Notes under the pieces: generated by a model | Told to the model about the DNA's origin: nothing | Databases searched by the model: none | Seen by the model: the letters and a program-made list of their open reading frames with translations, nothing else | NCBI RefSeq assembly: GCF_056712565.1 | Contig: NZ_CM160072.1 | Length of the DNA: 64,000 bases | Reading direction: 5' to 3' (one strand) | Made by a program: the position numbers and the translations under genes | Part shown: positions 7,375-48,445 of the stretch, in pieces | Layout of the letters: each line of letters opens with the position of its first letter | How positions within the stretch are numbered: the first letter of the stretch is position 1

Positions 7375-7654
7375 TGAACGAAGCACACTTTACGTGGCGA
7401 TGATAGTGACCTTCCTGCACCAACCTTGCCGCCGCCATTTATGTGAACGGTACATTAACGCTGCTGGTGGCAGCAAATGCAGACCCGGTGCGTGTTACAG
7501 CAGGTGAGAGATGAACGGTTAAAGGATATTGGGTTATGCAGGGAGGATGTGGTGTAATGGAGAGAGTCCTTCACGAAACGATGGGATTTATATGTCACCT
7601 CGTCAGATAAGGGGTTATTATTGCGAAATCATCGCTTCACGGAAAGACGTCAGA

Positions 7655-9748
7655 ATGAAAGCTACAGAAGCCCGCCTACTCGATTTTTTAAAACGTTCGC
7701 AGCAGTTCGTTATTACCATTTATCAACGGACTTATTCATGGACAGAACAACAATGTCGGCAACTTTGGGACGACATCATTCGTGCCGGAAAGCGTGACGA
7801 TATATCAGCGCATTTTATCGGTTCGGTTGTTTATATTGAGCAGGGGTTGTATCAGGTTTCTGGTATTTCTCCGTTACTGGTCATTGATGGTCAACAAAGG
7901 CTGACGACCGCAATGTTGCTGATTGAGGCTTTATCGCGTCATCTTGGCGAAGACGAAGTTTTTGATGGCTTTTCAGCAATGAAATTGCGTAATTATTATT
8001 TACTCAATCCTTATGAGTCCGGCGAGAAAGGATTTAAATTACTGCTGACCGAGACTGATAAAGACAGTTTGCTGGCGTTAATAAAACAAAGACCAATGCC
8101 AGAAAACTATTCCCATCGAATAATGGAAAACTTTACTTTCTTTGATGAACAAATTACCAAACTCGGTGATGACTTGATCCCCTTATGTCGTGGGTTAGCA
8201 AAGTTATTAATTGTCGATGTGGCGCTTAATCGTGGTCAGGATAATCCGCAACTGATTTTTGAAAGTATGAACTCCACCGGTAAGGCATTAAGTCAGGCCG
8301 ATCTGGTGCGCAATTTTATTCTGATGGGCCTCGAACCAGAGCATCAAACCCGGTTGTATGAAGATCACTGGCGTCCAATGGAAGTCGCGTTTGGTCAGCA
8401 AGGTTACAGCGAATATTTTGACAGTTTTATGCGTCATTATCTGACGGTAAAAACGGGGGAGATCCCTCGGACAGATGAAGTCTATGAGGCATTTAAACTC
8501 CATGCCCGCAGCCAGAGTGTTGCTGAAAAAGGCGTAGATCGGCTGGTTGAAGATATTCACATCTACGCGGAGTATTACTGTGCAATGGCATTGGGAAAAG
8601 AAAGTGACAAATCGCTTGCTACGGCTTTTCAGGATTTGCGCGAGTTAAAGGTCGATGTGGCGTATCCTTTCTTACTGGCGCTTTATCATGACTATAAAAA
8701 TGGCGTTTTGTCTCACGAAGATTTCCTGAGCATAATTCGTTTAATTGAATCTTATGTTTTCCGCCGTGCAGTATGTGCGATTCCGACAAATTCTCTTAAC
8801 AAGACGTTTGCTACTTTTTATAAGGTCATTAATAAAGAAAAATATCTGGAAAGTATTCAGGTACATTTTCTGAATCTGCCTTCATATCGTCGTTTCCCCA
8901 ACGATGATGAATTTAAACGGGAATTAAAAGTTCGTGATCTCTATAATTTCCGTAGTCGCAGCTACTGGTTACGACGACTGGAAAACGATAAACGCAGAGA
9001 GCGCGTGGAAGAGTTTACGATTGAGCATATTATGCCGCAGAACGAAAATTTGTCGGCTAAATGGCGTGAAGAGCTGGGAAGTGACTGGCAACGCATTCAT
9101 AAAGAACTGTTGCATACGTTGGGGAATCTCACATTAACGCGCTATAACTCCCGCTACAGTGACAGACCTTTCGCGGAAAAACGCGATATTGAAGACGGCT
9201 TTAAACATAGCCCGCTCTATTTGAATATCGGTCTTGGACAGTGCGAAAAATGGGATGAAGCAGCCATTCGCGCCCGTGCAGATCGTCTGGCCGATCTCGC
9301 GGTTCAGGTCTGGCAAGCGCCTGCTCTTCCTGAAGAGGTTTTAGCTGTTTATCGGGCGCAGCCGGAGAACAAAACCAGTTACAGCCTGAGTGATTATCCT
9401 TTTCTTGCTGATGGTTCGCATAGCCGGGTGTTATTTGATCATCTTCGCGATGAAGTTATGCGCCTGGACGCAGGGATCACGCAGGAAGTTTTAAAGCTCT
9501 ATATTGCGTTTAAAGCTGAAACGAATTTTGTTGATGTTGTACCGCAAAAAAGCCGACTGCGGTTGTCGCTTAATATGCAGTTTCATGAACTGGTCGATCC
9601 GAAAGGTATTGCCAAAGATGTGACAAATGTTGGGCGATGGGGCAATGGTGATGTGGAAATTGGTTTCAGTGACCTCGCACAACTTCCTTACATTATGGGA
9701 TTAATTCGTCAGGCATTTGAAAAACAGATGGAGAGCGCGTTGGTATAA
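7655..9748 (+). CDS. DUF262 (ParB/Srx-like, DGQQR motif) plus DUF1524 (His-Me finger, HNH-like) fusion protein; putative GmrSD-family type IV modification-dependent restriction endonuclease
   Basis: ORF 7529..9748 (739 aa); start proposed at ATG 7655 (MKATEARLLDFLKRSQQFVITIYQRTYSW, ~697 aa). N-terminal motifs IYQRTYSW and VIDGQQRLTT; C-terminal motif EHIMPQNE...HTLGNLTLTRYN; a further ~100-aa C-terminal extension. Lies between rpn and symE-hsdSMR-mrr. Confidence 0.7.
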   Translation: MKATEARLLDFLKRSQQFVITIYQRTYSWTEQQCRQLWDDIIRAGKRDDISAHFIGSVVYIEQGLYQVSGISPLLVIDGQQRLTTAMLLIEALSRHLGEDEVFDGFSAMKLRNYYLLNPYESGEKGFKLLLTETDKDSLLALIKQRPMPENYSHRIMENFTFFDEQITKLGDDLIPLCRGLAKLLIVDVALNRGQDNPQLIFESMNSTGKALSQADLVRNFILMGLEPEHQTRLYEDHWRPMEVAFGQQGYSEYFDSFMRHYLTVKTGEIPRTDEVYEAFKLHARSQSVAEKGVDRLVEDIHIYAEYYCAMALGKESDKSLATAFQDLRELKVDVAYPFLLALYHDYKNGVLSHEDFLSIIRLIESYVFRRAVCAIPTNSLNKTFATFYKVINKEKYLESIQVHFLNLPSYRRFPNDDEFKRELKVRDLYNFRSRSYWLRRLENDKRRERVEEFTIEHIMPQNENLSAKWREELGSDWQRIHKELLHTLGNLTLTRYNSRYSDRPFAEKRDIEDGFKHSPLYLNIGLGQCEKWDEAAIRARADRLADLAVQVWQAPALPEEVLAVYRAQPENKTSYSLSDYPFLADGSHSRVLFDHLRDEVMRLDAGITQEVLKLYIAFKAETNFVDVVPQKSRLRLSLNMQFHELVDPKGIAKDVTNVGRWGNGDVEIGFSDLAQLPYIMGLIRQAFEKQMESALV

Positions 9749-9794: not shown

Positions 9795-10136
9795 TCAGGC
9801 GACTTTCTGTTTACCCGCAATCACCCCAATAAACTCCTGCACCTGCCTTTGTTTACGCGCCGACAGCTTGCACACCTGGCGAAGCGACTGCATCAGTTCG
9901 CTCTCTTCGGCGGCGGGGGGTTGGGCGGTGAGGACAATACAGCCTTCCATCACTTTGACATCTATCGCCGTGCCAGTGGCAAAACCGGCGGCTTCCAGCC
10001 ACTGACCTTTCAGGGTGATGGCGGGAATACGGCTGTAATCCGGGTAGCGACTCGCATAACTCACGGTTAATTGACGGTTATTTGCCGGGGAGACTTCTGC
10101 TTCGAACGGTTGTGCAATAGAATGCGTGTCAGTCAT
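9795..10136 (-). CDS. symE: SOS-induced toxin-like protein SymE (AbrB/SpoVT fold)
   Basis: ORF 9795..10193; start set at [15 protein letters not shown] (113 aa) matching K-12 SymE; LexA-box-like site upstream. Confidence 0.88.
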
Positions 10137-10207
10137 GATTACTATTCTCCATAAATAGTGATTGTGATGAGCGGTGCGGGTGTGTTGGCGCACATCCGCA
10201 TCGCGCT
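10131..10207 (+). ncRNA. symR: SymR antisense sRNA (approximate bounds) overlapping the symE start and 5-prime UTR
   Basis: Placed by established knowledge of the symE/SymR type I-like pair; coordinates approximate, not derived from a promoter or terminator read. Confidence 0.4.
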
Positions 10208-10364: not shown

Positions 10365-11732
10365 TCAGGACTTTTTACGCGAGGCTTTTTTACCCCCGCT
10401 GGCTGCGCGTTCAGCTTTGATTTTCTCCAGCAACGCGGCGGCGCTGTTTTCACCGCTGATTAATTCCGGGTTTTCGGCCCGCCACTGGGCGGTGAGTTCA
10501 CCACGGAACGCTTTTGCCAGGATGGATTGCGTCAGATTGTTGACGCGGGCTAAGGCGTTGTTGACCTGTTTTTCTATTGTGTCGGCGTAGGCGAAGAGTT
10601 GCTCGACGCGGCGAACGATTTCAGCTTGTTCGGGAAGGGGGGGAACAGTTATTGGGTATGCAATTAATTTCTGTGCATTAATATTTGATTGACTGACCCC
10701 ATCAGATTTAACTGAATAGCAATATTGTCTCCCCAAAATGCTATTTAAATGGTAGTTAAGATAGTCAGGGTTTAAATCAGGTAAACATTGAACCCTAATC
10801 AAATAACCTGCATAAATAGCTGGTTGCTCTGATTTATATATGGCTGTTTTCCCGACAAGTTCAGGACTATTTGTACGATTGAATAATACATCATTGTACT
10901 CAAGTTTATACTTTTCAATTTCTATGGTATCTGACGTATAGACTAGATCCGTCCAGTCCAACTTTCCTCCCTGAAGATTGCCCATTCTTAATACAGGAAT
11001 GAGTCCTTCTTTATTAGACTTAGATGACGTTCCGTAACTTGGTTTTTTTATAAACTCCCCAAGTTTGCCTTCTCTCCACCCAGACAGGCTTGAATTATCT
11101 CTCCAGTCTTCAGTTAGTTTTCCTCTCACCGCTGCACCCAGAACCGCCTGACGAAAACGTTTCAGGATTTGTGGGATTTGCTCAAGACGTGCTTTGGTGC
11201 TGTCTACCTGTGCCAGCAGCGTATCGAGTTTTTCAGCGATGATTTTTTGTTCGGCAAACGGTACAAGAACAAATGGTAATGTTTTCGCAGAACTACCAGA
11301 AATTTCTTTAAAAGTTGTTCCTGTGCCCATTTCCTCTGCAATATGTCTGATGTTGCGGAGAAAGTAATATGCATAATCAGGAAAAATGTCTGAAGGAAAA
11401 GCAAAACTTTTGAAACCCTGGTTAGTCGCAATCTCATTTGCAGCAATAGCAACATATCCAATCGGTGCCCGGCTACTAAAAAGTATAGTGCCTTTGGGCA
11501 TTAGTTTTGCTGAACAAGAGGAATAGCCTAGTGTAGTTAAATCTCTGGCACCATGTGAGATATATTTCTCTTTATAACCGCTCAAATCGGCAGGCGTAAG
11601 CCAGGCGACTCCCTCACCCGAAGGTGCAAAATTTTCAGCGACTCCCGATTTTGGTGTCCCACCAGAGATGACATCAGCAATGTCGCCTATTTCAATCTGT
11701 TCCCACCCCTCCGGCAATTTCCCAGCACTCAT
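10365..11732 (-). CDS. hsdS: Type I restriction-modification specificity subunit HsdS (type IA framework, non-EcoKI target-recognition domains)
   Basis: 455-aa ORF; N-terminal MSAGKLPEGW, central PFAEQKIIAEKLDTLLAQVDSTKAR...ILKRFRQAVLG and C-terminal PPLPEQAEIVRRVEQLFAYADTIEKQVNN...KAFRGELTAQWRAENP framework segments conserved, variable blocks between; 4-nt overlap with the hsdM stop. Confidence 0.9.
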   Translation of the reverse strand: MSAGKLPEGWEQIEIGDIADVISGGTPKSGVAENFAPSGEGVAWLTPADLSGYKEKYISHGARDLTTLGYSSCSAKLMPKGTILFSSRAPIGYVAIAANEIATNQGFKSFAFPSDIFPDYAYYFLRNIRHIAEEMGTGTTFKEISGSSAKTLPFVLVPFAEQKIIAEKLDTLLAQVDSTKARLEQIPQILKRFRQAVLGAAVRGKLTEDWRDNSSLSGWREGKLGEFIKKPSYGTSSKSNKEGLIPVLRMGNLQGGKLDWTDLVYTSDTIEIEKYKLEYNDVLFNRTNSPELVGKTAIYKSEQPAIYAGYLIRVQCLPDLNPDYLNYHLNSILGRQYCYSVKSDGVSQSNINAQKLIAYPITVPPLPEQAEIVRRVEQLFAYADTIEKQVNNALARVNNLTQSILAKAFRGELTAQWRAENPELISGENSAAALLEKIKAERAASGGKKASRKKS

Positions 11733-13318
11733 TCCTTCACCCCACCAAATGCTTCTTCCAGCAACTGGCGCTGCGCATCCGCCTCATCGCTCGCCCCCAG
11801 TTCACGCATCAGCGCATCCAGTTCAGACAGCGCCTGTACCAGTTCACCCATCGCTTCTGCCGCTAATACATCCGGCTCCGGCAGGTTGTCGGCATCAATA
11901 CTGTCTTTATCTTTCAGCCAGGAGATATCCAGCGAATCGGATTTCGCGGTGCGGATCCACTCGCGGCTGAACTTGCGCCAGCGGCTGGTAGCAAGATGCT
12001 GGTCGGTGTTTTTGTTCTCTTCGCTGTCGGCAATTTCCGTCTCTTCGGCGTTAAAACTCCATTCACCTTCAGTGCGCGGGCTTAAGCCGTGCGGGTCTTC
12101 GCCAAACACGCGCTCAAACGGTTGCAAATGCTCGTCGGTAAACGGCGTGCGTTTACCAAAGCTCGGCATATTGGTCCGCAGGTCGTACACCCACACGTCA
12201 TCGGTGCAGTTCTTATCCTGATTCGGGTTCGCCACCGTCCCTTTGATAAAGAACAGCACGTTGGTCTTCACGCCCTGCGCGTAAAAAATACCGGTCGGCA
12301 GACGCAGAATAGTGTGCAGATGACACTTATCCATCAGGTCACGACGGATGTCCGTACCTTTGCCGCCTTCAAACAGCACGTTATCCGGCACCACCACCGC
12401 CGCACGACCGCCGGGGTGCAGCGTTTCGATAATATGCTGCATAAAGCACAACTGTTTGTTGCTGGTCGGGTGAACAAAGGTGCGGGTAATGTTGGTGCCT
12501 GCGGCGCTGCCAAACGGCGGGTTAGTGGCGACAATATGCGCCTTCGGCAGGTTTTCGCCGTCGCTGCCCAGGGTGTTGCCCAGACGGATTGCGCCGCCGT
12601 GGTCGAGGTTGCCTTCAATATCGTGCAGCAGGCAGTTCATCAGCGCCAGACGACGGGTGCCGGGCACCAGTTCGAGGCCGATAAACGCGCGGTGGATCTG
12701 GAAATCCTGCGTGTCGCCATCAAGGTCGTCCAGATCGTTAGTCTGCGACTTAACGTAGCGGTCGGCTTCAATCAAAAAGCCCGCCGTACCGGCTGCCGGA
12801 TCCTGTACCACTTCACGTGGCTGCGGTTTCAGCAGATGAATAATGGTTTTAATCAGCGGACGCGGGGTGAAGTACTGGCCCGCGCCAGACTTGGTTTCAT
12901 TGGCGTTCTTCTGCAGCAGCCCTTCGTACATATCGCCGAAGTCATCGCGCGACTTACCGTGCGCACCGTTGTACCAGTCCAGTGAATCCATATTGCTGAC
13001 CAGTGCGGTTATTTGTTTCGGCTCGGTGATGGTGGTACTAACATTATGAAAAACTGCCTGTACCAGCTTTTTGTCATCTTCGCCTAAATGCACGAGCATT
13101 TTTCGGTAGAACTGCAACTGCTCCTGGCCGATGCGGGATTTCAGGTCATCCCAGCGGTAACCTTCCGGCAGGTATTCCGCTTCCTGCCCGGTCTCTTTAC
13201 ACATTTTCAAAAACAGCAGCGAGGCGAGTTCATTGACGTAGTTTTGATAGGAAACGCCGCCATCGCGCAGGTTGTCGCACAGCTTCCACAGCTTCGCGAC
13301 CAGATCGTTATTGTTCAT
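11729..13318 (-). CDS. hsdM: Type I R-M N6-adenine DNA methyltransferase subunit HsdM
   Basis: 529-aa ORF; NPPF catalytic motif (IVATNPPFGSAAG) and AdoMet-binding region; same length as K-12 HsdM. Confidence 0.95.
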   Translation of the reverse strand: MNNNDLVAKLWKLCDNLRDGGVSYQNYVNELASLLFLKMCKETGQEAEYLPEGYRWDDLKSRIGQEQLQFYRKMLVHLGEDDKKLVQAVFHNVSTTITEPKQITALVSNMDSLDWYNGAHGKSRDDFGDMYEGLLQKNANETKSGAGQYFTPRPLIKTIIHLLKPQPREVVQDPAAGTAGFLIEADRYVKSQTNDLDDLDGDTQDFQIHRAFIGLELVPGTRRLALMNCLLHDIEGNLDHGGAIRLGNTLGSDGENLPKAHIVATNPPFGSAAGTNITRTFVHPTSNKQLCFMQHIIETLHPGGRAAVVVPDNVLFEGGKGTDIRRDLMDKCHLHTILRLPTGIFYAQGVKTNVLFFIKGTVANPNQDKNCTDDVWVYDLRTNMPSFGKRTPFTDEHLQPFERVFGEDPHGLSPRTEGEWSFNAEETEIADSEENKNTDQHLATSRWRKFSREWIRTAKSDSLDISWLKDKDSIDADNLPEPDVLAAEAMGELVQALSELDALMRELGASDEADAQRQLLEEAFGGVKE

Positions 13319-13519: not shown

Positions 13520-16500
13520 TCAGGCCAGCTCGTCCCAGATATAATCGCTGAATTTATCAAGCAGGTTGTCGAGATTATCGTCAAAGGTTCTTTGTAGCAT
13601 CGCCTTACCGCCGCGGCGGTGGAAGTTGCCGGTTTTGAAGACATCGTCGTCGAGCACCACTTTCTCTTTCAGCGCCTGCGCTAAACGATCGAGCCAGCTT
13701 AATTGCTCGCTGCTCCAGTCGTTTTCACCCTTAATGCGCGTCAGCGCGTGATCGACACGTTCCTCAAACGGTTTCAGCGCATCGCCCACCGCAGCGCGGC
13801 GAATATGACCAATCAGCCGGGCGGCGATATCTTCATTGCGCGTCTCTTTCCATGCTTTGCGCAGGGAAGATTCCTCAAAATGCTGGCGGTCAAACCACTC
13901 CTGGAGCTCGACCAGCCCTTTACGGGTGAGATCGCGCGGGCGATTGATCACCGCCTGCAATGCCGGCTGCGCGTTCGGGGAACGTTGCACCAGCGAGTCA
14001 AAGGCTTCGAGGAAATCCTGCGGCGTGTCGTAATCACCGTACAGCGATTTTACACTCACCACTTCATCGTCGATATCGAGGAAGATCGGCGCATCATTCA
14101 GGTTGTTGATGTCCGTTTTCAGCTTTTCCAGACGGGCGATAAAGCCAGGCAGTTTGTTAAAGACTTCGGCGCTCCAGTGCGGCCCTTTTTCCCGCAGGCG
14201 CGAGGCGAAGCCGTTAAAGTTCACGCCCGCCGCGTCCTGGCATAGCTCATCCAGACGACGCACCTGTTTATCTATCGTTTCGCTGCGGTCACGGTTAAAC
14301 GTGGCCAGGCCGATGATGCGCTGGAGCTTCGCCACCAATTGTTCATGGCTGTGCTCGGCAAAGCTACGGCCATCCGCTTCGGTGATTTTATAGGTTTCTG
14401 AATCGGTAATTTCATTGACCAGCGTTTGCAGTTCCACCTTCGGACGCACCACCACCGGACGCATGGTGTCGACGCTCTCCAGCGTGCTGTAGATATCGAC
14501 ACAGTCGAAAATCTTAAAGCTGGTTTTATTCACGTCCGGGCATAAGCGCGTGGCGCGGCCTTTCATCTGCTCGTACAGAATACGGCTGCGTACTTTACGC
14601 AGGAACACGATATTACAGATCGACGGAATATCGACGCCGGTTGTCAGCAGGTCGACGGTTACCACGATATTGGGCAGCCGCTCTTTATTGAAGCGGGTGA
14701 TCATGGTCTGCACTTTGCGCGCGTCTTTATCGGCATCACCGGTGATCTTGATGATCGCGTCGTGCTCCAGTTGCGGATACTTTTTCTTGAACGCGGTACG
14801 CAACTCTTCCACCACCATATCGGCATGGGCATTGGTAACGCAGAAGACCAGCGTTTTTTGCGACCCGGTCGGGTCAAGGTAGTTGGTGAGCTCGTTACAG
14901 ACGGCGCGGTTAAACGCCGGGATCACCAGGCCACGGTTAAAGTCGGCGACCTCAAAATCCTGATCGTCTTCCAGGGTATCGTTGATCACTTCTCCCTGCG
15001 GGCTGATGCGCTCTACCTGTTCGCCCTTGGAGAGATAAACCCCCTCCTGGGCGTTGCGGGTGATGATCTGAATCGGCGGATCCTGGTCGATCAGAAAACC
15101 GTCGATAACCGCGGTACGGTAGGTATAACGGTAAACCGGCTCGCCGAAAATCTGCACCGTATGCAGCGCCGGGGTGGCGGTGAGGGCGATTTTTACCGCA
15201 TCGAAGTGATCGAGAATGCGACGGTAGGCAGAAACGTAATCCAGCTGGCTGCGGAACTGCAGCTCGCCTTCGGTCTGCTCTTTATCGAGAATATAGCCGC
15301 GATGCGCTTCATCGACGACGATACAGTCGTAACGGGCCACCGGCATCGGTTCATCTGATTGTAGGGTGCGTTTCACCAGCGACTGTACGGTGGCAACGTG
15401 AATTTTGGTGCTGTCTTCGGGGAATTTATCCGTCAGCCCTTTAATGTCGAAAATGCTGTTGAAGGTGTCGCCGTTAATACGCGTATCTTCAAACGCCCCC
15501 AGTGCCTGCTCGCCAAGAGAACGGCGATCGACAAGGAAGAGAATGCGTTTAAAACGCTGGGACTGGATCAGGCGGAACATCATGGCAATTGCGGTGCGGG
15601 TTTTACCGGTACCGGTCGCCATCGCCAGCAGGATCTCTTGTTGACCCTTGACGATTGCCTTTTCCACCGCGCGGACGGCATCTTCCTGGTAATAACGCAG
15701 GCCCAGCTCGCTCATGCCCGGGTTATCGGCAAACCACTGATTCTGTTTTTGCGGTTCGCTGCCGAGCATTTCCAGCAGCTCTTCCGGGCGATGCCACTCG
15801 GGTAAGGCTTTCGACATATTGCGGGTATCACGCACGTCGCGATACCAGATGCCACTTTTAGTCTTCATTGCTGCGCGATATTCGCGCCCGTTGGTGGAGT
15901 AGCAGAAGGGGATTTTAAACCGTTGTTGGCCGCTGGTGTCCTGCCAGCTAGTTTCATACTCCGGCACAGCTTCATGCACTTCATCCGGTGAGTAATGCTC
16001 AAGCAAGGTTTCCCGCAGGAAGCCATTATCGAAGCATTTGCTGTAGCGATACGACTCATTGAGCTTGCCGGGAACGTCGATATTTTTACGTTTCGCCTCT
16101 ACCACCGCGATGGGCTTGAGGCCGACAAACAGCACATAATCCGCAAAGCCCTGATTACCCGTTTCATCTTTCCCGGTCGGCCATTCGGCAATGGCTTTAT
16201 TGACGCCGGGTTCCGGGCGTGCGCCTTTGGAGAAGCGCAGGGTTTTGCTATCGGCCTGCCAGCCTGCTTTACGCAGTTGCGCGTCAATCAGGAAGCGACT
16301 CTCTTCTTCGCTAAGGTTGAGTGTGCGCTTGATGGCCTGATCGGTAATTTCTTTGTGGTAAGCCTTACGTTCCTGTTCGGTCTGTTTGGCCAGCTCCGCG
16401 TTCTTCTCGGCGAGCTGTGCTTCCAGCGCCGCAAGGCGAGCCTGGGTTTGCGCTTCTGTTTCCTGCTGTTTGCCTTCCAGAATGGCGATATAGCCGTTCA

Positions 16501-17032
16501 GGGCAACCAGCTTCTGCTGTTGCGCTTCGACTTCTGCCCGAGTCTGCGCTTTTTCTCGCGCCTGCTGTTCAAGCTGTTGTTTTAGCGTCAGCACTTCCTG
16601 GTGATAGAGGTTTTCGCCACGTTCCGGCAACACAAATACCGGCACCGGGAAGTCATAATCTTTGGTGACCAGACGGTAGTACCAGACAGCCAGGCGGAAC
16701 CCGAGTCGCAGGCACATCTGGGCATCGTCGAGATCGTTATGGTATTCGTGCACCGCCTGGTTACCAATGCGGCGTAATTTGTGGAATACAGAGAGAATGT
16801 TGTCATCAACGAAGGCGATTTTGCCGAGTTCGCGCAGGAGATCGTGTTGATTCTCACAAGGGGGGATGTTGAGTAACAGACCAAGATGTTTCGCTGTAGC
16901 TTCGCCAAACATACGCATTTTAATCAGCGTCGTGTTGGGATCATCCGGGTAGTTATTTTCCGCCGCACAGGCGATGGCATAAGTGAAGTCGTTGACGCCC
17001 TTCAGGAATTCGAAGTTGGATTTATTCATCAT
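13520..17032 (-). CDS. hsdR: Type I R-M restriction subunit HsdR (SF2 helicase/translocase plus endonuclease)
   Basis: 1170-aa ORF; Walker A (AMATGTGKT) and DEAH-like (VVDEAHR) helicase motifs; synteny. Confidence 0.95.
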   Translation of the reverse strand: MMNKSNFEFLKGVNDFTYAIACAAENNYPDDPNTTLIKMRMFGEATAKHLGLLLNIPPCENQHDLLRELGKIAFVDDNILSVFHKLRRIGNQAVHEYHNDLDDAQMCLRLGFRLAVWYYRLVTKDYDFPVPVFVLPERGENLYHQEVLTLKQQLEQQAREKAQTRAEVEAQQQKLVALNGYIAILEGKQQETEAQTQARLAALEAQLAEKNAELAKQTEQERKAYHKEITDQAIKRTLNLSEEESRFLIDAQLRKAGWQADSKTLRFSKGARPEPGVNKAIAEWPTGKDETGNQGFADYVLFVGLKPIAVVEAKRKNIDVPGKLNESYRYSKCFDNGFLRETLLEHYSPDEVHEAVPEYETSWQDTSGQQRFKIPFCYSTNGREYRAAMKTKSGIWYRDVRDTRNMSKALPEWHRPEELLEMLGSEPQKQNQWFADNPGMSELGLRYYQEDAVRAVEKAIVKGQQEILLAMATGTGKTRTAIAMMFRLIQSQRFKRILFLVDRRSLGEQALGAFEDTRINGDTFNSIFDIKGLTDKFPEDSTKIHVATVQSLVKRTLQSDEPMPVARYDCIVVDEAHRGYILDKEQTEGELQFRSQLDYVSAYRRILDHFDAVKIALTATPALHTVQIFGEPVYRYTYRTAVIDGFLIDQDPPIQIITRNAQEGVYLSKGEQVERISPQGEVINDTLEDDQDFEVADFNRGLVIPAFNRAVCNELTNYLDPTGSQKTLVFCVTNAHADMVVEELRTAFKKKYPQLEHDAIIKITGDADKDARKVQTMITRFNKERLPNIVVTVDLLTTGVDIPSICNIVFLRKVRSRILYEQMKGRATRLCPDVNKTSFKIFDCVDIYSTLESVDTMRPVVVRPKVELQTLVNEITDSETYKITEADGRSFAEHSHEQLVAKLQRIIGLATFNRDRSETIDKQVRRLDELCQDAAGVNFNGFASRLREKGPHWSAEVFNKLPGFIARLEKLKTDINNLNDAPIFLDIDDEVVSVKSLYGDYDTPQDFLEAFDSLVQRSPNAQPALQAVINRPRDLTRKGLVELQEWFDRQHFEESSLRKAWKETRNEDIAARLIGHIRRAAVGDALKPFEERVDHALTRIKGENDWSSEQLSWLDRLAQALKEKVVLDDDVFKTGNFHRRGGKAMLQRTFDDNLDNLLDKFSDYIWDELA

Positions 17033-17219: not shown

Positions 17220-18134
17220 ATGACGGTTCCTACCTATGACAAATTTATTGAACCTGTTCTGCGTTATCTGGCAACAAAACCGGAAGGTGCAGCCGCGCGT
17301 GATGTTCATGAGGCTGCCGCGGATGCATTAGGACTGGATGACAGCCAGCGATCGAAAGTCATTACCAGCGGACAACTTGTTTATAAAAATCGTGCAGGCT
17401 GGGCACATGACCGTTTAAAACGTGCCGGGTTGTCGCAAAGTTTGTCGCGTGGCAAATGGTGCCTGACTCCTGCGGGTTTTGACTGGGTTGCGTCTCATCC
17501 CCAGCCAATGACGGAGCAGGAGATGAACCATCTGGCCTTCAATTTTGTGAATGTCAAACTTAAGTCACGGCCGGATGCCGTCGATTTAGATCCGAAAGCC
17601 GACTCTCCCGATCATGAAGAACTTGCAAAGAGCAGCCCGGACGATCGGTTAGATCAGGCGCTAAAAGAGCTTCGTGATGCGGTGGCTGATGAGGTTCTGG
17701 AAAACTTATTGCAGGTTTCTCCTTCGCGCTTTGAAGTCATTGTTCTGGATGTTTTGCATCGCCTGGGGTATGGCGGCCACCGTGATGATTTGCAGCGTGT
17801 TGGCGGTACTGGAGATGGTGGCATCGATGGTGTGATATCGCTTGATAAACTTGGCCTGGAGAAAGTTTATGTTCAGGCAAAACGTTGGCAGAATACTGTA
17901 GGCAGGCCAGAATTACAGGCATTTTACGGCGCACTGGCTGGGCAAAAAGCGAAACGTGGGGTGTTTATTACCACTTCTGGATTTACTTCTCAGGCGCGTG
18001 ACTTTGCCCAATCCGTCGAGGGTATGGTGTTGGTTGATGGGGAACGCCTGGTGCACTTAATGATCGAAAACGAAGTAGGGGTTTCTTCACGTTTGTTGAA
18101 GGTGCCGAAACTGGATATGGATTATTTTGAGTGA
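17220..18134 (+). CDS. mrr: Mrr type IV methylation-dependent restriction endonuclease
   Basis: 304-aa ORF with N-terminal winged-helix and C-terminal Mrr-cat region; divergent from hsdR as in K-12. Confidence 0.92.
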   Translation: MTVPTYDKFIEPVLRYLATKPEGAAARDVHEAAADALGLDDSQRSKVITSGQLVYKNRAGWAHDRLKRAGLSQSLSRGKWCLTPAGFDWVASHPQPMTEQEMNHLAFNFVNVKLKSRPDAVDLDPKADSPDHEELAKSSPDDRLDQALKELRDAVADEVLENLLQVSPSRFEVIVLDVLHRLGYGGHRDDLQRVGGTGDGGIDGVISLDKLGLEKVYVQAKRWQNTVGRPELQAFYGALAGQKAKRGVFITTSGFTSQARDFAQSVEGMVLVDGERLVHLMIENEVGVSSRLLKVPKLDMDYFE

Positions 18135-40119: not shown

Positions 40120-40206
40120 TGGTGCGAGGGGGGGGACTTGAACCCCCACGTCCGTAAGGACACTAACACCTGAAGCTAGCGCGTCTACCAATTCCGCCAC
40201 CTTCGC
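40120..40206 (-). tRNA. leuV: tRNA-Leu (CAG anticodon), 87 nt with encoded CCA
   Basis: Reverse complement reads GCGAAGGTGGCGGAATTGGTAGACGCGCTAGCTTCAGGTGTTAGTGTCCTTACGGACGTGGGGGTTCAAGTCCCCCCCCTCGCACCA; type II tRNA with long variable arm. Confidence 0.95.
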
Positions 40207-40240
40207 ACAGTCATCTTACTTTTTTTGATATCGCCTCGTT

Positions 40241-40327
40241 TGGTGCGAGGGGGGGGACTTGAACCCCCACGTCCGTAAGAACACTAACACCTGAAGCTAG
40301 CGCGTCTACCAATTCCGCCACCTTCGC
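40241..40327 (-). tRNA. leuP: tRNA-Leu (CAG), variant copy with one substitution in the variable arm
   Basis: Identical to the flanking copies except GTGTTCTTACGGAC instead of GTGTCCTTACGGAC (tRNA sense). Confidence 0.93.
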
Positions 40328-40355
40328 CCAGTGCGAGCAATATCAACGTGGTTTT

Positions 40356-40442
40356 TGGTGCGAGGGGGGGGACTTGAACCCCCACGTCCGTAAGGACACT
40401 AACACCTGAAGCTAGCGCGTCTACCAATTCCGCCACCTTCGC
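40356..40442 (-). tRNA. leuQ: tRNA-Leu (CAG)
   Basis: Third tandem copy, identical to the copy at 40120-40206. Confidence 0.95.
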
Positions 40443-47457: not shown

Positions 47458-48233
47458 TTTGCCGTTTTATCGACACCCACTGCCATTTTGATTTCCCGCC
47501 GTTTAGTGGCGATGAAGAGGCCAGCCTGCAACGCGCGGCACAAGCGGGCGTAGGCAAGATCATTGTTCCGGCGACAGAGGCGGAAAATTTTGCCCGCGTG
47601 CAGGCGTTAGCGGAAAAATATCAACCGCTGTATGCCGCATTGGGCTTACATCCTGGTATGTTGGAAAAACATAGCGATGTGTCTCTTGATCAGCTACAGC
47701 AGGCGCTGGAAAGGCATCCGGCGAAGGTGGTGGCGGTGGGGGAGATCGGTCTGGATCTCTTTGGCGACGATCCGCAATTTGAGAGGCAGCAGTGGTTACT
47801 CGACGAACAACTGAAACTGGCGAAACGCTACGATCTGCCGGTGATCCTGCATTCACGACGCACGCACGACAAACTGGCGATGCATCTTAAACGCCACGAT
47901 TTACCGTGCACTGGCGTGGTTCATGGTTTTTCCGGCAGCCTGCAACAGGCCGAACGGTTTGTGCAACTGGGCTACAAAATTGGCGTAGGCGGGACTATCA
48001 CCTATCCACGCGCCAGTAAAACCCGCGATGTCATCGCAAAATTACCGCTGGCATCGTTGTTGCTGGAAACCGACGCACCAGATATGCCGCTCAATGGTTT
48101 TCAGGGGCAGCCTAATCGCCCTGAACAGGCCGCCCGTGTGTTTGCCGTGCTTTGCGAGTTACGACCGGAACCGGCGGATGAGATTGCCGAAGTGTTGCTT
48201 AATAACACCTATACGTTGTTTAACGTGCCGTAG
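47454..48233 (+). CDS. yjjV: TatD-family metal-dependent DNase/hydrolase YjjV
   Basis: 259-aa ORF with HxH metal-binding motif near the N-terminus (DTHCHFDF); 4-nt overlap with yjjU. Confidence 0.9.
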   Translation: MICRFIDTHCHFDFPPFSGDEEASLQRAAQAGVGKIIVPATEAENFARVQALAEKYQPLYAALGLHPGMLEKHSDVSLDQLQQALERHPAKVVAVGEIGLDLFGDDPQFERQQWLLDEQLKLAKRYDLPVILHSRRTHDKLAMHLKRHDLPCTGVVHGFSGSLQQAERFVQLGYKIGVGGTITYPRASKTRDVIAKLPLASLLLETDAPDMPLNGFQGQPNRPEQAARVFAVLCELRPEPADEIAEVLLNNTYTLFNVP

Positions 48234-48445
48234 GCCGGACAAGGCGTTTACGCCGCATCCGGCCGTTGGCGCACAATGCCTGATGCGACGCTGACGCGTC
48301 TTATCATGCCTACAAGTCTGTGCCGAACCGTAGGCCGGATAAGGCGTTCACGCCGCATCCGGCAGCTGGCGCACAATGCCTGATGCGACGCTTGACGCGT
48401 CTTATCATGCCTACAGGTCTGTGCCGATCCGTAGGCCACATCCGG
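48234..48445. repeat. BIME/REP cluster with a tandemly duplicated ~100-bp unit
   Basis: Two near-identical units, each TAGGCCGGA(C/T)AAGGCGTT(T/C)ACGCCGCATCCGGC...GCGCACAATGCCTGATGCGACGCT...CTTATCATGCCTACA, then a third REP-like palindrome. Confidence 0.75.

What the first reader, a model, noticed from the sequence alone, without database searches (positions are those of the whole stretch)
10365..11732. hsdS allele with type IA framework but non-EcoKI target-recognition domains
The HsdS N-terminus (MSAGKLPEGW), the central conserved repeat (PFAEQKIIAEKLDTLLAQVDSTKAR...FRQAVLG) and the C-terminal repeat (PPLPEQAEIVRRVEQLFAYADTIEKQVNN...TAQWRAENP) match the EcoKI family. The two intervening blocks (roughly residues 11-150 and 215-370) differ from the EcoKI TRDs as I remember them. 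hsdM and hsdR look like standard family IA subunits. The enzyme should therefore recognise a bipartite site different from AAC(N6)GTGC, and host DNA would carry a different m6A pattern.
Basis: partly seen in the sequence, partly recalled or inferred. Interest (0 to 1): 0.5.

Follow-up and report, generated by a model that had tools for sequence, protein, structure and literature searches.

The report
Known E. coli hsdS allele (EcoUTI89I/Eco646I)
This is the DNA-recognition subunit of an ordinary E. coli type I restriction-modification system. Its sequence is identical to the allele of strain UTI89, whose target, CCA(N7)CTTC, has already been determined by experiment, so the finding is correct but not new.

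Summary
The ORF at 10365-11732 (minus strand, 455 aa) is an intact hsdS gene. It overlaps hsdM by 4 bp and lies downstream of hsdR, in the E. coli immigration-control region between mrr and symE.

The N-terminal decapeptide and the central and C-terminal conserved regions are 93-100% identical to EcoKI HsdS. The two target-recognition domains are only about 13-47% identical to EcoKI. HsdM and HsdR are 99% identical to K-12.

The interpretation (family IA scaffold, non-EcoKI specificity) is also correct, but it is already known. The hsdS DNA is 100% identical over its full length to that of E. coli UTI89, and the allele occurs in 223 of 5426 complete E. coli genomes.

For UTI89 this system (EcoUTI89I, REBASE Eco646I group) was shown to methylate and restrict 5'-CCA(N7)CTTC-3'. 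The evidence was SMRT sequencing, hsdSMR deletion, plasmid restriction assays and reciprocal hsdS swaps with K-12 (Mehershahi & Chen, NAR 2021). The Eco646I specificity is credited to a 2003 study, and a 2008 survey found it among the two commonest type I specificities in clinical E. coli.

Other alleles in the collection carry only one of the two recognition domains, which is the classic pattern of domain shuffling. Nothing here is unexplained, so interest is low.

The parts
10365..11732 (-). hsdS, the specificity subunit (455 aa). It is the EcoUTI89I / Eco646I-type allele.
   Evidence: ORF. Two PF01420 domains. NF007278 equivalog above its cut-off. 100% DNA identity to UTI89 hsdS, protein WP_001272440.1.
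11262..11702 (-). TRD1 (about aa 11-157), the N-terminal target-recognition domain. It is inferred to read the CCA half-site.
   Evidence: 13-33% identity to EcoKI TRD1 per 15-aa bin. This DNA occurs in 242 of 5426 E. coli genomes, always in hsdS. Strain Tig228 combines it with a different TRD2. It resembles the TRDs of M. jannaschii HsdS 1YF2, at 113 and 70 bits. The half-site assignment is an inference from family IA precedent.
11100..11261 (-). Central conserved region (about aa 158-211), a coiled-coil spacer.
   Evidence: 80-100% identity to EcoKI for residues 166-210, and the same length as in EcoKI.
10644..11099 (-). TRD2 (about aa 212-363), the C-terminal target-recognition domain. It is inferred to read the CTTC (GAAG) half-site.
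   Evidence: 13-47% identity to EcoKI TRD2 per bin. This DNA occurs in 278 genomes: 223 at >=99% identity, and 55 at 95-99% of which the four listed (97.4%; ZYB62 examined) lack this allele's 5' part.
10365..10643 (-). C-terminal conserved region (about aa 364-455) plus the stop codon.
   Evidence: 93-100% identity to EcoKI.
11729..13318 (-). hsdM, the m6A methyltransferase subunit (529 aa). Its stop codon overlaps the hsdS start codon by 4 bp (ATGA).
   Evidence: junction sequence. 524/529 identical to K-12 HsdM and DNA identical to UTI89.
13520..17032 (-). hsdR, the restriction/translocase subunit (1170 aa).
   Evidence: 1158/1170 identical to K-12. It differs from UTI89 and SF-468 by one residue, Q165R.

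Best explanation
The ORF is the hsdS gene of a family IA (EcoKI-family) type I restriction-modification system. It is allelic with K-12 hsdS and identical to the allele of uropathogenic E. coli UTI89 (EcoUTI89I, REBASE Eco646I group).

HsdS joins two HsdM subunits to form an M2S1 methyltransferase that places m6A on both strands of 5'-CCA(N7)CTTC-3'. With two HsdR subunits it forms R2M2S1, which translocates and cuts DNA carrying unmethylated sites.

Shown, for the identical sequence in UTI89: the motif, its loss when hsdSMR is deleted, methylation-dependent restriction of plasmids, and function of swapped hsdS alleles with the 99%-identical HsdM/HsdR of K-12.

Inferred: (1) the system is active in this particular strain; (2) TRD1 reads CCA and TRD2 reads CTTC, as in EcoKI where the N-terminal TRD reads the trinucleotide; (3) the bottom-strand methylated adenine is the one opposite the first T of CTTC (5'-GAA*G-3'). 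Point 3 follows because it gives the 8-base methyl interval shared by all family IA enzymes, whose central conserved region is the same length as here.
For: The intact ORF has two Methylase_S domains and matches the HsdS equivalog above its cut-off.

Identity to EcoKI HsdS is mosaic. HsdM is 99.1% and HsdR 99.0% identical to K-12.

Gene order is mrr - hsdR - hsdM - hsdS - symE, as in K-12.

hsdS and hsdM DNA are identical to UTI89, and the full-length hsdS allele occurs in 223 of 5426 complete E. coli genomes.

PMC8287963 reports SMRT detection of m6A at CCA(N7)CTTC at 737 and 749 of 754 sites, and no longer reports this motif for the hsdSMR deletion strain. It also reports plasmid restriction assays, classification as Type IA, and functional hsdS swaps between UTI89 and MG1655.

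Eco646I = CCA(N7)CTTC is listed in PMC2490747 and PMC3874165.
Against: Nothing contradicts it. Four caveats apply.

Activity in this exact strain was not measured.

HsdR carries one substitution (Q165R) that is absent from UTI89, SF-468 and K-12.

The link between the UTI89 allele and the original Eco646I strain rests on the REBASE grouping as reported in PMC8287963. I could not obtain the sequence of strain EC646, and the 2003 paper is not held.

The assignment of half-sites to TRDs and the position of the bottom-strand methyl group are inferences. The 2013 review lists the Eco646I methyl interval as '?'.
Confidence: 0.95

Rival explanations
1. The genes are intact, but the system is silent or restriction-deficient in this particular strain. 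The cause could be the HsdR Q165R change or regulation such as restriction alleviation. The CCA(N7)CTTC pattern would then be absent, or present without restriction.
For: HsdR differs by one residue from the UTI89, SF-468 and K-12 proteins. Other strains do inactivate this allele: N31 has an IS1 insertion, and in MS20654 the match is split into two places, the larger covering only 86% of the gene.
Against: All three ORFs are full length. hsdS and hsdM are base-identical to the functional UTI89 genes. Residue 165 lies in a Q/E/A-rich N-terminal segment, outside the region that contains the helicase-like 'DEAH' motif (sequence). In UTI89 97.7-99.3% of sites are methylated, which indicates constitutive activity.
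Confidence: 0.04
2. The specificity is as published, but the domain assignment is reversed: TRD1 reads GAAG (CTTC) and TRD2 reads TGG (CCA).
For: No tool result here ties either TRD to a half-site. Which strand a type I site is written on is a matter of convention. The only published table I found leaves the Eco646I methyl interval as '?'.
Against: In the characterised family IA enzymes (EcoKI, StySPI, StySQ hybrids) the N-terminal TRD reads the trinucleotide half. This is established knowledge and was not tested here.
Confidence: 0.2
3. The allele still recognises the EcoKI site AAC(N6)GTGC.
For: None.
Against: The TRDs are only about 13-47% identical to EcoKI's. With megablast, K-12 DNA matches only 28% of the gene, namely the conserved regions. 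UTI89 carrying this allele restricts only the CCA(N7)CTTC plasmid, and it switches to the EcoKI site only when given MG1655 hsdS.
Confidence: 0.01

Closest known systems
EcoUTI89I (S.EcoUTORF5051P, UTI89_C5050; WP_001272440.1) of E. coli UTI89
   Same: hsdS and hsdM DNA are 100% identical, HsdR is 1169/1170 identical, and the neighbouring genes are the same. Its published specificity is CCA(N7)CTTC.
   Different: One HsdR substitution (Q165R). The window comes from a different, UTI89-like ExPEC/APEC-type genome. Over bases 1-25000 it is about 100% identical to SF-468, APEC E18055 and others.
Eco646I (the prototype of the CCA(N7)CTTC specificity; the cited source, a 2003 paper, is not held here)
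   Same: It has the same recognition sequence, according to the REBASE grouping quoted in PMC8287963 and the tables in PMC2490747 and PMC3874165. It is one of the two commonest type I specificities in clinical E. coli.
   Different: The sequence of the EC646 S subunit was not available to me, so identity to the prototype is not shown at sequence level.
EcoKI (E. coli K-12, family IA prototype, AAC(N6)GTGC)
   Same: The chromosomal slot is the same, HsdM and HsdR are 99% identical, and the N-terminal, central and C-terminal HsdS regions are identical or nearly identical and of the same length. The S subunits are interchangeable in vivo.
   Different: Both TRDs are unrelated in detail, at about 20-30% identity. 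The protein is 455 aa against 464 aa. The target is CCA(N7)CTTC instead of AAC(N6)GTGC.
Recombinant family IA alleles in E. coli ZYB62 and Tig228
   Same: ZYB62 carries this TRD2 (97% DNA identity), and Tig228 carries this TRD1 (100%). Both sit in the same conserved framework.
   Different: In each, the other TRD is unrelated, so each presumably has a hybrid specificity. I do not know those specificities.

Membership tests
Type I R-M specificity subunit (HsdS) | Two tandem TRD / Methylase_S domains separated and followed by conserved helical regions | tested here: met
   PF01420 at residues 7-187 and 217-394. NF007278 scores 736.6 bits against a cut-off of 662. PADLOC Specificity_I scores 592 bits.
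Type I family IA (EcoKI family) | HsdM and HsdR closely similar to those of EcoKI | tested here: met
   HsdM is 524/529 and HsdR 1158/1170 identical to K-12.
Type I family IA (EcoKI family) | HsdS conserved regions (N-terminal, central, C-terminal) of the IA type | tested here: met
   Residues 1-10 are identical. Residues 166-210 are 80-100% and 376-455 are 93-100% identical to EcoKI.
Type I family IA (EcoKI family) | Allelic chromosomal position in the immigration-control region (mrr - hsdRMS - symE) | tested here: met
   The gene order in the window matches K-12.
Type I family IA (EcoKI family) | Genetic complementation between subunits of family members | not testable with these tools
   Published for the identical allele: UTI89 with MG1655 hsdS restricts the EcoKI site, and MG1655 with UTI89 hsdS was also constructed (PMC8287963).
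Eco646I / EcoUTI89I isospecific group (CCA(N7)CTTC) | S subunit identical or near-identical to one whose specificity was determined by experiment | tested here: met
   455/455 aa and 1368/1368 nt identical to UTI89 hsdS. The UTI89 motif was shown by SMRT sequencing, deletion and restriction assays.
Eco646I / EcoUTI89I isospecific group (CCA(N7)CTTC) | m6A at CCA(N7)CTTC and restriction of unmethylated sites in this strain | not testable with these tools
   This needs a methylome or a transformation assay of the source strain.
EcoKI specificity (AAC(N6)GTGC) | TRDs matching those of EcoKI | tested here: not met
   TRD1 is 13-33% and TRD2 13-47% identical per 15-aa bin. K-12 DNA matches only the conserved 28% of the gene.

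The most novel reading that the evidence does not exclude
The most novel reading still open concerns the CCA-reading TRD1. It scores 113 and 70 bits against the two TRDs of the archaeal Methanocaldococcus jannaschii HsdS (1YF2), and the same CCA(N7)CTTC motif appears in a Bacteroides dorei methylome. TRD1 could therefore be a very widely exchanged recognition cassette. Its structure-to-specificity code could be read from the existing archaeal crystal structure, which might assign a target to that structure. This would be an incremental insight into TRD evolution, not a new system.
Probability: 0.15. Interest if true: 0.2.

Novelty: already known. Interest (0 to 1): 0.07.

Why it matters
The practical value is small. 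The window's strain should methylate CCA(N7)CTTC, and it should restrict DNA prepared in K-12 or other hosts that do not methylate this site. That matters for transforming ST95-like ExPEC/APEC strains and for interpreting their methylomes. Published work on the identical allele found no effect of this methylation on gene expression, growth phenotypes or virulence. The locus is a textbook example of type I specificity changing through exchange of recognition domains, and it raises no open question.

Tried and rejected
(1) I tried to read the 2003 paper cited as the source of the Eco646I specificity (PMC149844). It is not held, so I used the 2008 and 2013 papers that tabulate the site.

(2) I counted CCA(N7)CTTC sites in the window to look for avoidance or enrichment. 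There are 14, against 7.4 +/- 2.9 in shuffles, and 2 of 100 shuffles reach 14. However, the UTI89 genome average is 754 sites in about 5.07 Mb, or about 9.5 per 64 kb. The site is generally 2.4-fold commoner than a simple prediction, so the count is uninformative.

(3) I looked for the TRD DNA outside hsdS, in other families or on plasmids, with sensitive blastn. Every match lies in the chromosomal hsdS gene, so there is no cross-family lead for assigning half-sites.

(4) REBASE is not available here, so a direct TRD-to-specificity look-up was impossible.

(5) I considered phase variation. There is a single hsdS gene and no second copy in the matching genomes (median one place per genome). The UTI89 paper reports no repeats or extra hsd homologues. 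I rejected this idea.

Full report
**Observation.** The window holds an uninterrupted 455-codon ORF at 10365..11732 on the minus strand, beginning MSAGKLPEGW.

- The ORF starts 4 bp inside the end of a 529-aa ORF at 11729..13318 (junction ...GGAATGAGTGCT...).
- That ORF is preceded by a 1170-aa ORF at 13520..17032.
- mrr lies beyond it on the opposite strand, at 17220..18134.
- Pfam finds two Methylase_S domains, at residues 7-187 and 217-394.
- The protein passes the curated cut-off of the NCBIfam HsdS equivalog NF007278, with 736.6 bits against 662.

**Comparison with EcoKI.** The protein matches EcoKI HsdS in the PDB (2y7c_A) at E = 4e-105. A global alignment with the K-12 gene product gives 48% identity overall, and the identity is sharply mosaic.

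| Residues | Identity to EcoKI HsdS |
|---|---|
| 1-10 | identical |
| 16-150 | 13-33% per 15-residue bin |
| 166-210 | 80-100% |
| 211-360 | 13-47% per 15-residue bin |
| 376-455 | 93-100% |

The central conserved region has the same length in both proteins. HsdM is 524/529, HsdR 1158/1170 and Mrr 301/304 identical to K-12.

**What it is.**

- Megablast of the gene against 5426 complete E. coli genomes finds the full-length allele at >=99% identity in 223 genomes, always on the chromosome. UTI89 is among them at 100%.
- K-12-type genomes match only the conserved 28% of the gene.
- A direct comparison confirms that the hsdS and hsdM DNA is base-for-base identical to UTI89. HsdR differs at one residue.
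- The first 25 kb of the window is essentially identical to several ExPEC/APEC genomes, including SF-468, APEC E18055 (O2:K1:H7) and E166.
- The gene order yjiA - mrr - hsdR - hsdM - hsdS - symE is that of the K-12 immigration-control region.

**Published characterisation of the identical allele.** Mehershahi & Chen (NAR 2021, PMC8287963) studied the UTI89 hsdSMR locus.

- SMRT sequencing found m6A at 5'-CCA(N7)CTTC-3', at 737 and 749 of the 754 sites on the two strands.
- The motif is no longer reported for the hsdSMR deletion strain.
- Plasmids carrying one or two sites were restricted in a methylation-dependent way.
- The system is classed as Type IA, named EcoUTI89I, and placed by REBASE in a group of 104 E. 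coli systems whose prototype is Eco646I.
- Replacing UTI89 hsdS with the MG1655 allele switched specificity to the EcoKI site. This is the complementation test that defines a type I family. The reverse construct was also made.

Eco646I = CCA(N7)CTTC is tabulated in Loenen et al. 2014 (PMC3874165). It also appears in a 2008 survey in which Eco377I and Eco646I together made up 48% of the type I specificities identified in 26 clinical E. coli strains (PMC2490747).

**Mechanism.**

*Shown, for the identical allele:* HsdS directs the EcoKI-like HsdM and HsdR subunits to CCA(N7)CTTC for m6A methylation and for restriction of unmethylated DNA.

*Inferred:*

1. The system is active in this strain. All three ORFs are intact, and the only difference from the UTI89 proteins is HsdR Q165R, in a Q/E/A-rich N-terminal segment.
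2. TRD1 (about residues 11-157) reads CCA and TRD2 (about residues 212-363) reads CTTC. This follows EcoKI, StySPI and StySQ, where the N-terminal TRD reads the trinucleotide. That is established knowledge and was not tested here.
3. The bottom-strand methylated adenine is opposite the first T of CTTC. This gives eight bases between the two methylated positions, as in all family IA enzymes listed, and it fits the unchanged length of the central conserved region. The 2013 table leaves this interval as '?' for Eco646I.

**Domain shuffling.**

- TRD1 DNA alone occurs in 242 genomes.
- TRD2 DNA alone occurs in 278 genomes. Of these, 55 are at 95-99% identity; the four listed (97.4%) are annotated only as a generic S subunit, and ZYB62, the one examined, has a different TRD1.
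- Protein alignment shows that strain ZYB62 carries a foreign TRD1 with this TRD2, and isolate Tig228 carries this TRD1 with a foreign TRD2. Both use the same conserved framework.

This is the classic modular evolution of type I specificity. It also supplies natural hybrids that could test the half-site assignment.

**Verdict.** The feature is an already known, named and experimentally characterised allele that is common in E. coli, present in about 4% of complete genomes. Interest is low.

**Surroundings, outside the finding.**

- K-12 has mcrBC downstream of symE. This window instead has a single intact ORF at 7655..9748 (+) with GmrSD_N, GmrSD_C and DUF5655 domains. It gives a full-length match to a PADLOC GmrSD-like model, so it is a candidate type IV restriction enzyme.
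- RefSeq annotates that stretch in SF-468 (window bases 1-25000 about 100% identical) and UTI89 as a 387-aa CDS plus a DUF262 pseudogene, although no stop codon interrupts the ORF in the window. I did not check those records' own sequence.
- SymR is detected antisense to the symE 5' end.

Noticed in passing
window 7529-9748 (+); probable start ATG at 7655: In the slot where K-12 has mcrBC there is an intact 697-aa ORF with GmrSD_N + GmrSD_C + DUF5655 domains. It is a candidate type IV, modification-dependent restriction enzyme. RefSeq annotates this stretch in SF-468 (window bases 1-25000 about 100% identical) and UTI89 as two pieces, a 387-aa CDS and a DUF262 pseudogene. No stop codon interrupts the ORF in the window, which suggests an annotation artefact; I did not compare those records' sequence directly.
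   Followed up: partly
window 16539 (hsdR codon 165; gene nt 494): HsdR carries Q165R relative to UTI89, SF-468 and K-12. This is the only difference from the UTI89 R-M proteins. It lies in a Q/E/A-rich N-terminal segment, and its effect is unknown.
   Followed up: partly
window 11742-11758 and 11059-11072: Two overlapping copies of the system's own target, CCA(N7)CTTC, lie at the 3' end of hsdM, just upstream of the hsdS start. A third lies inside hsdS TRD2. This is probably chance: the window has 14 sites in all.
   Followed up: partly
window 9795-10136 (-) and 10131-10207 (+): The symE toxin gene has the SymR antisense sRNA overlapping its 5' end (Rfam RF01809, 95.8 bits). SymE is 107/113 identical to K-12.
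   Followed up: no
E. coli N31 (NZ_CM165896.1) and MS20654 (NZ_CP082083.1), hits H1 and H8: In other strains the same hsdS allele appears disrupted. N31 has an IS1B element annotated under the match, which is split into two pieces. In MS20654 the match falls in two places, the larger covering only 86% of the gene. These look like natural losses of the system; the insertion points were not examined.
   Followed up: no
hsdS residues 3-205 vs PDB 1yf2_A: TRD1 is unusually similar to both TRDs of the archaeal Methanocaldococcus jannaschii S subunit, at 113 and 70 bits. A Bacteroides dorei methylome also contains CCA(N7)CTTC (PMC4101878). This hints that these recognition modules are very widely distributed.
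   Followed up: no
window 1-25000 vs strains MS15052, AH21G053, HS13-1, APEC 16-1068 (hits H31, H32, H39, H40): In several otherwise identical genomes this 25-kb stretch aligns in two pieces spanning about 31.6 kb. That implies an insertion of about 6.6 kb somewhere in the region that is absent from the window. Its position and content were not examined.
   Followed up: no
window 48233-48411 (+) and 40123-40442 (-): There are two tandem naRNA4 (REP-type) elements and a cluster of three identical tRNA genes, annotated as tRNA-Leu in SF-468. These are ordinary E. coli features.
   Followed up: no
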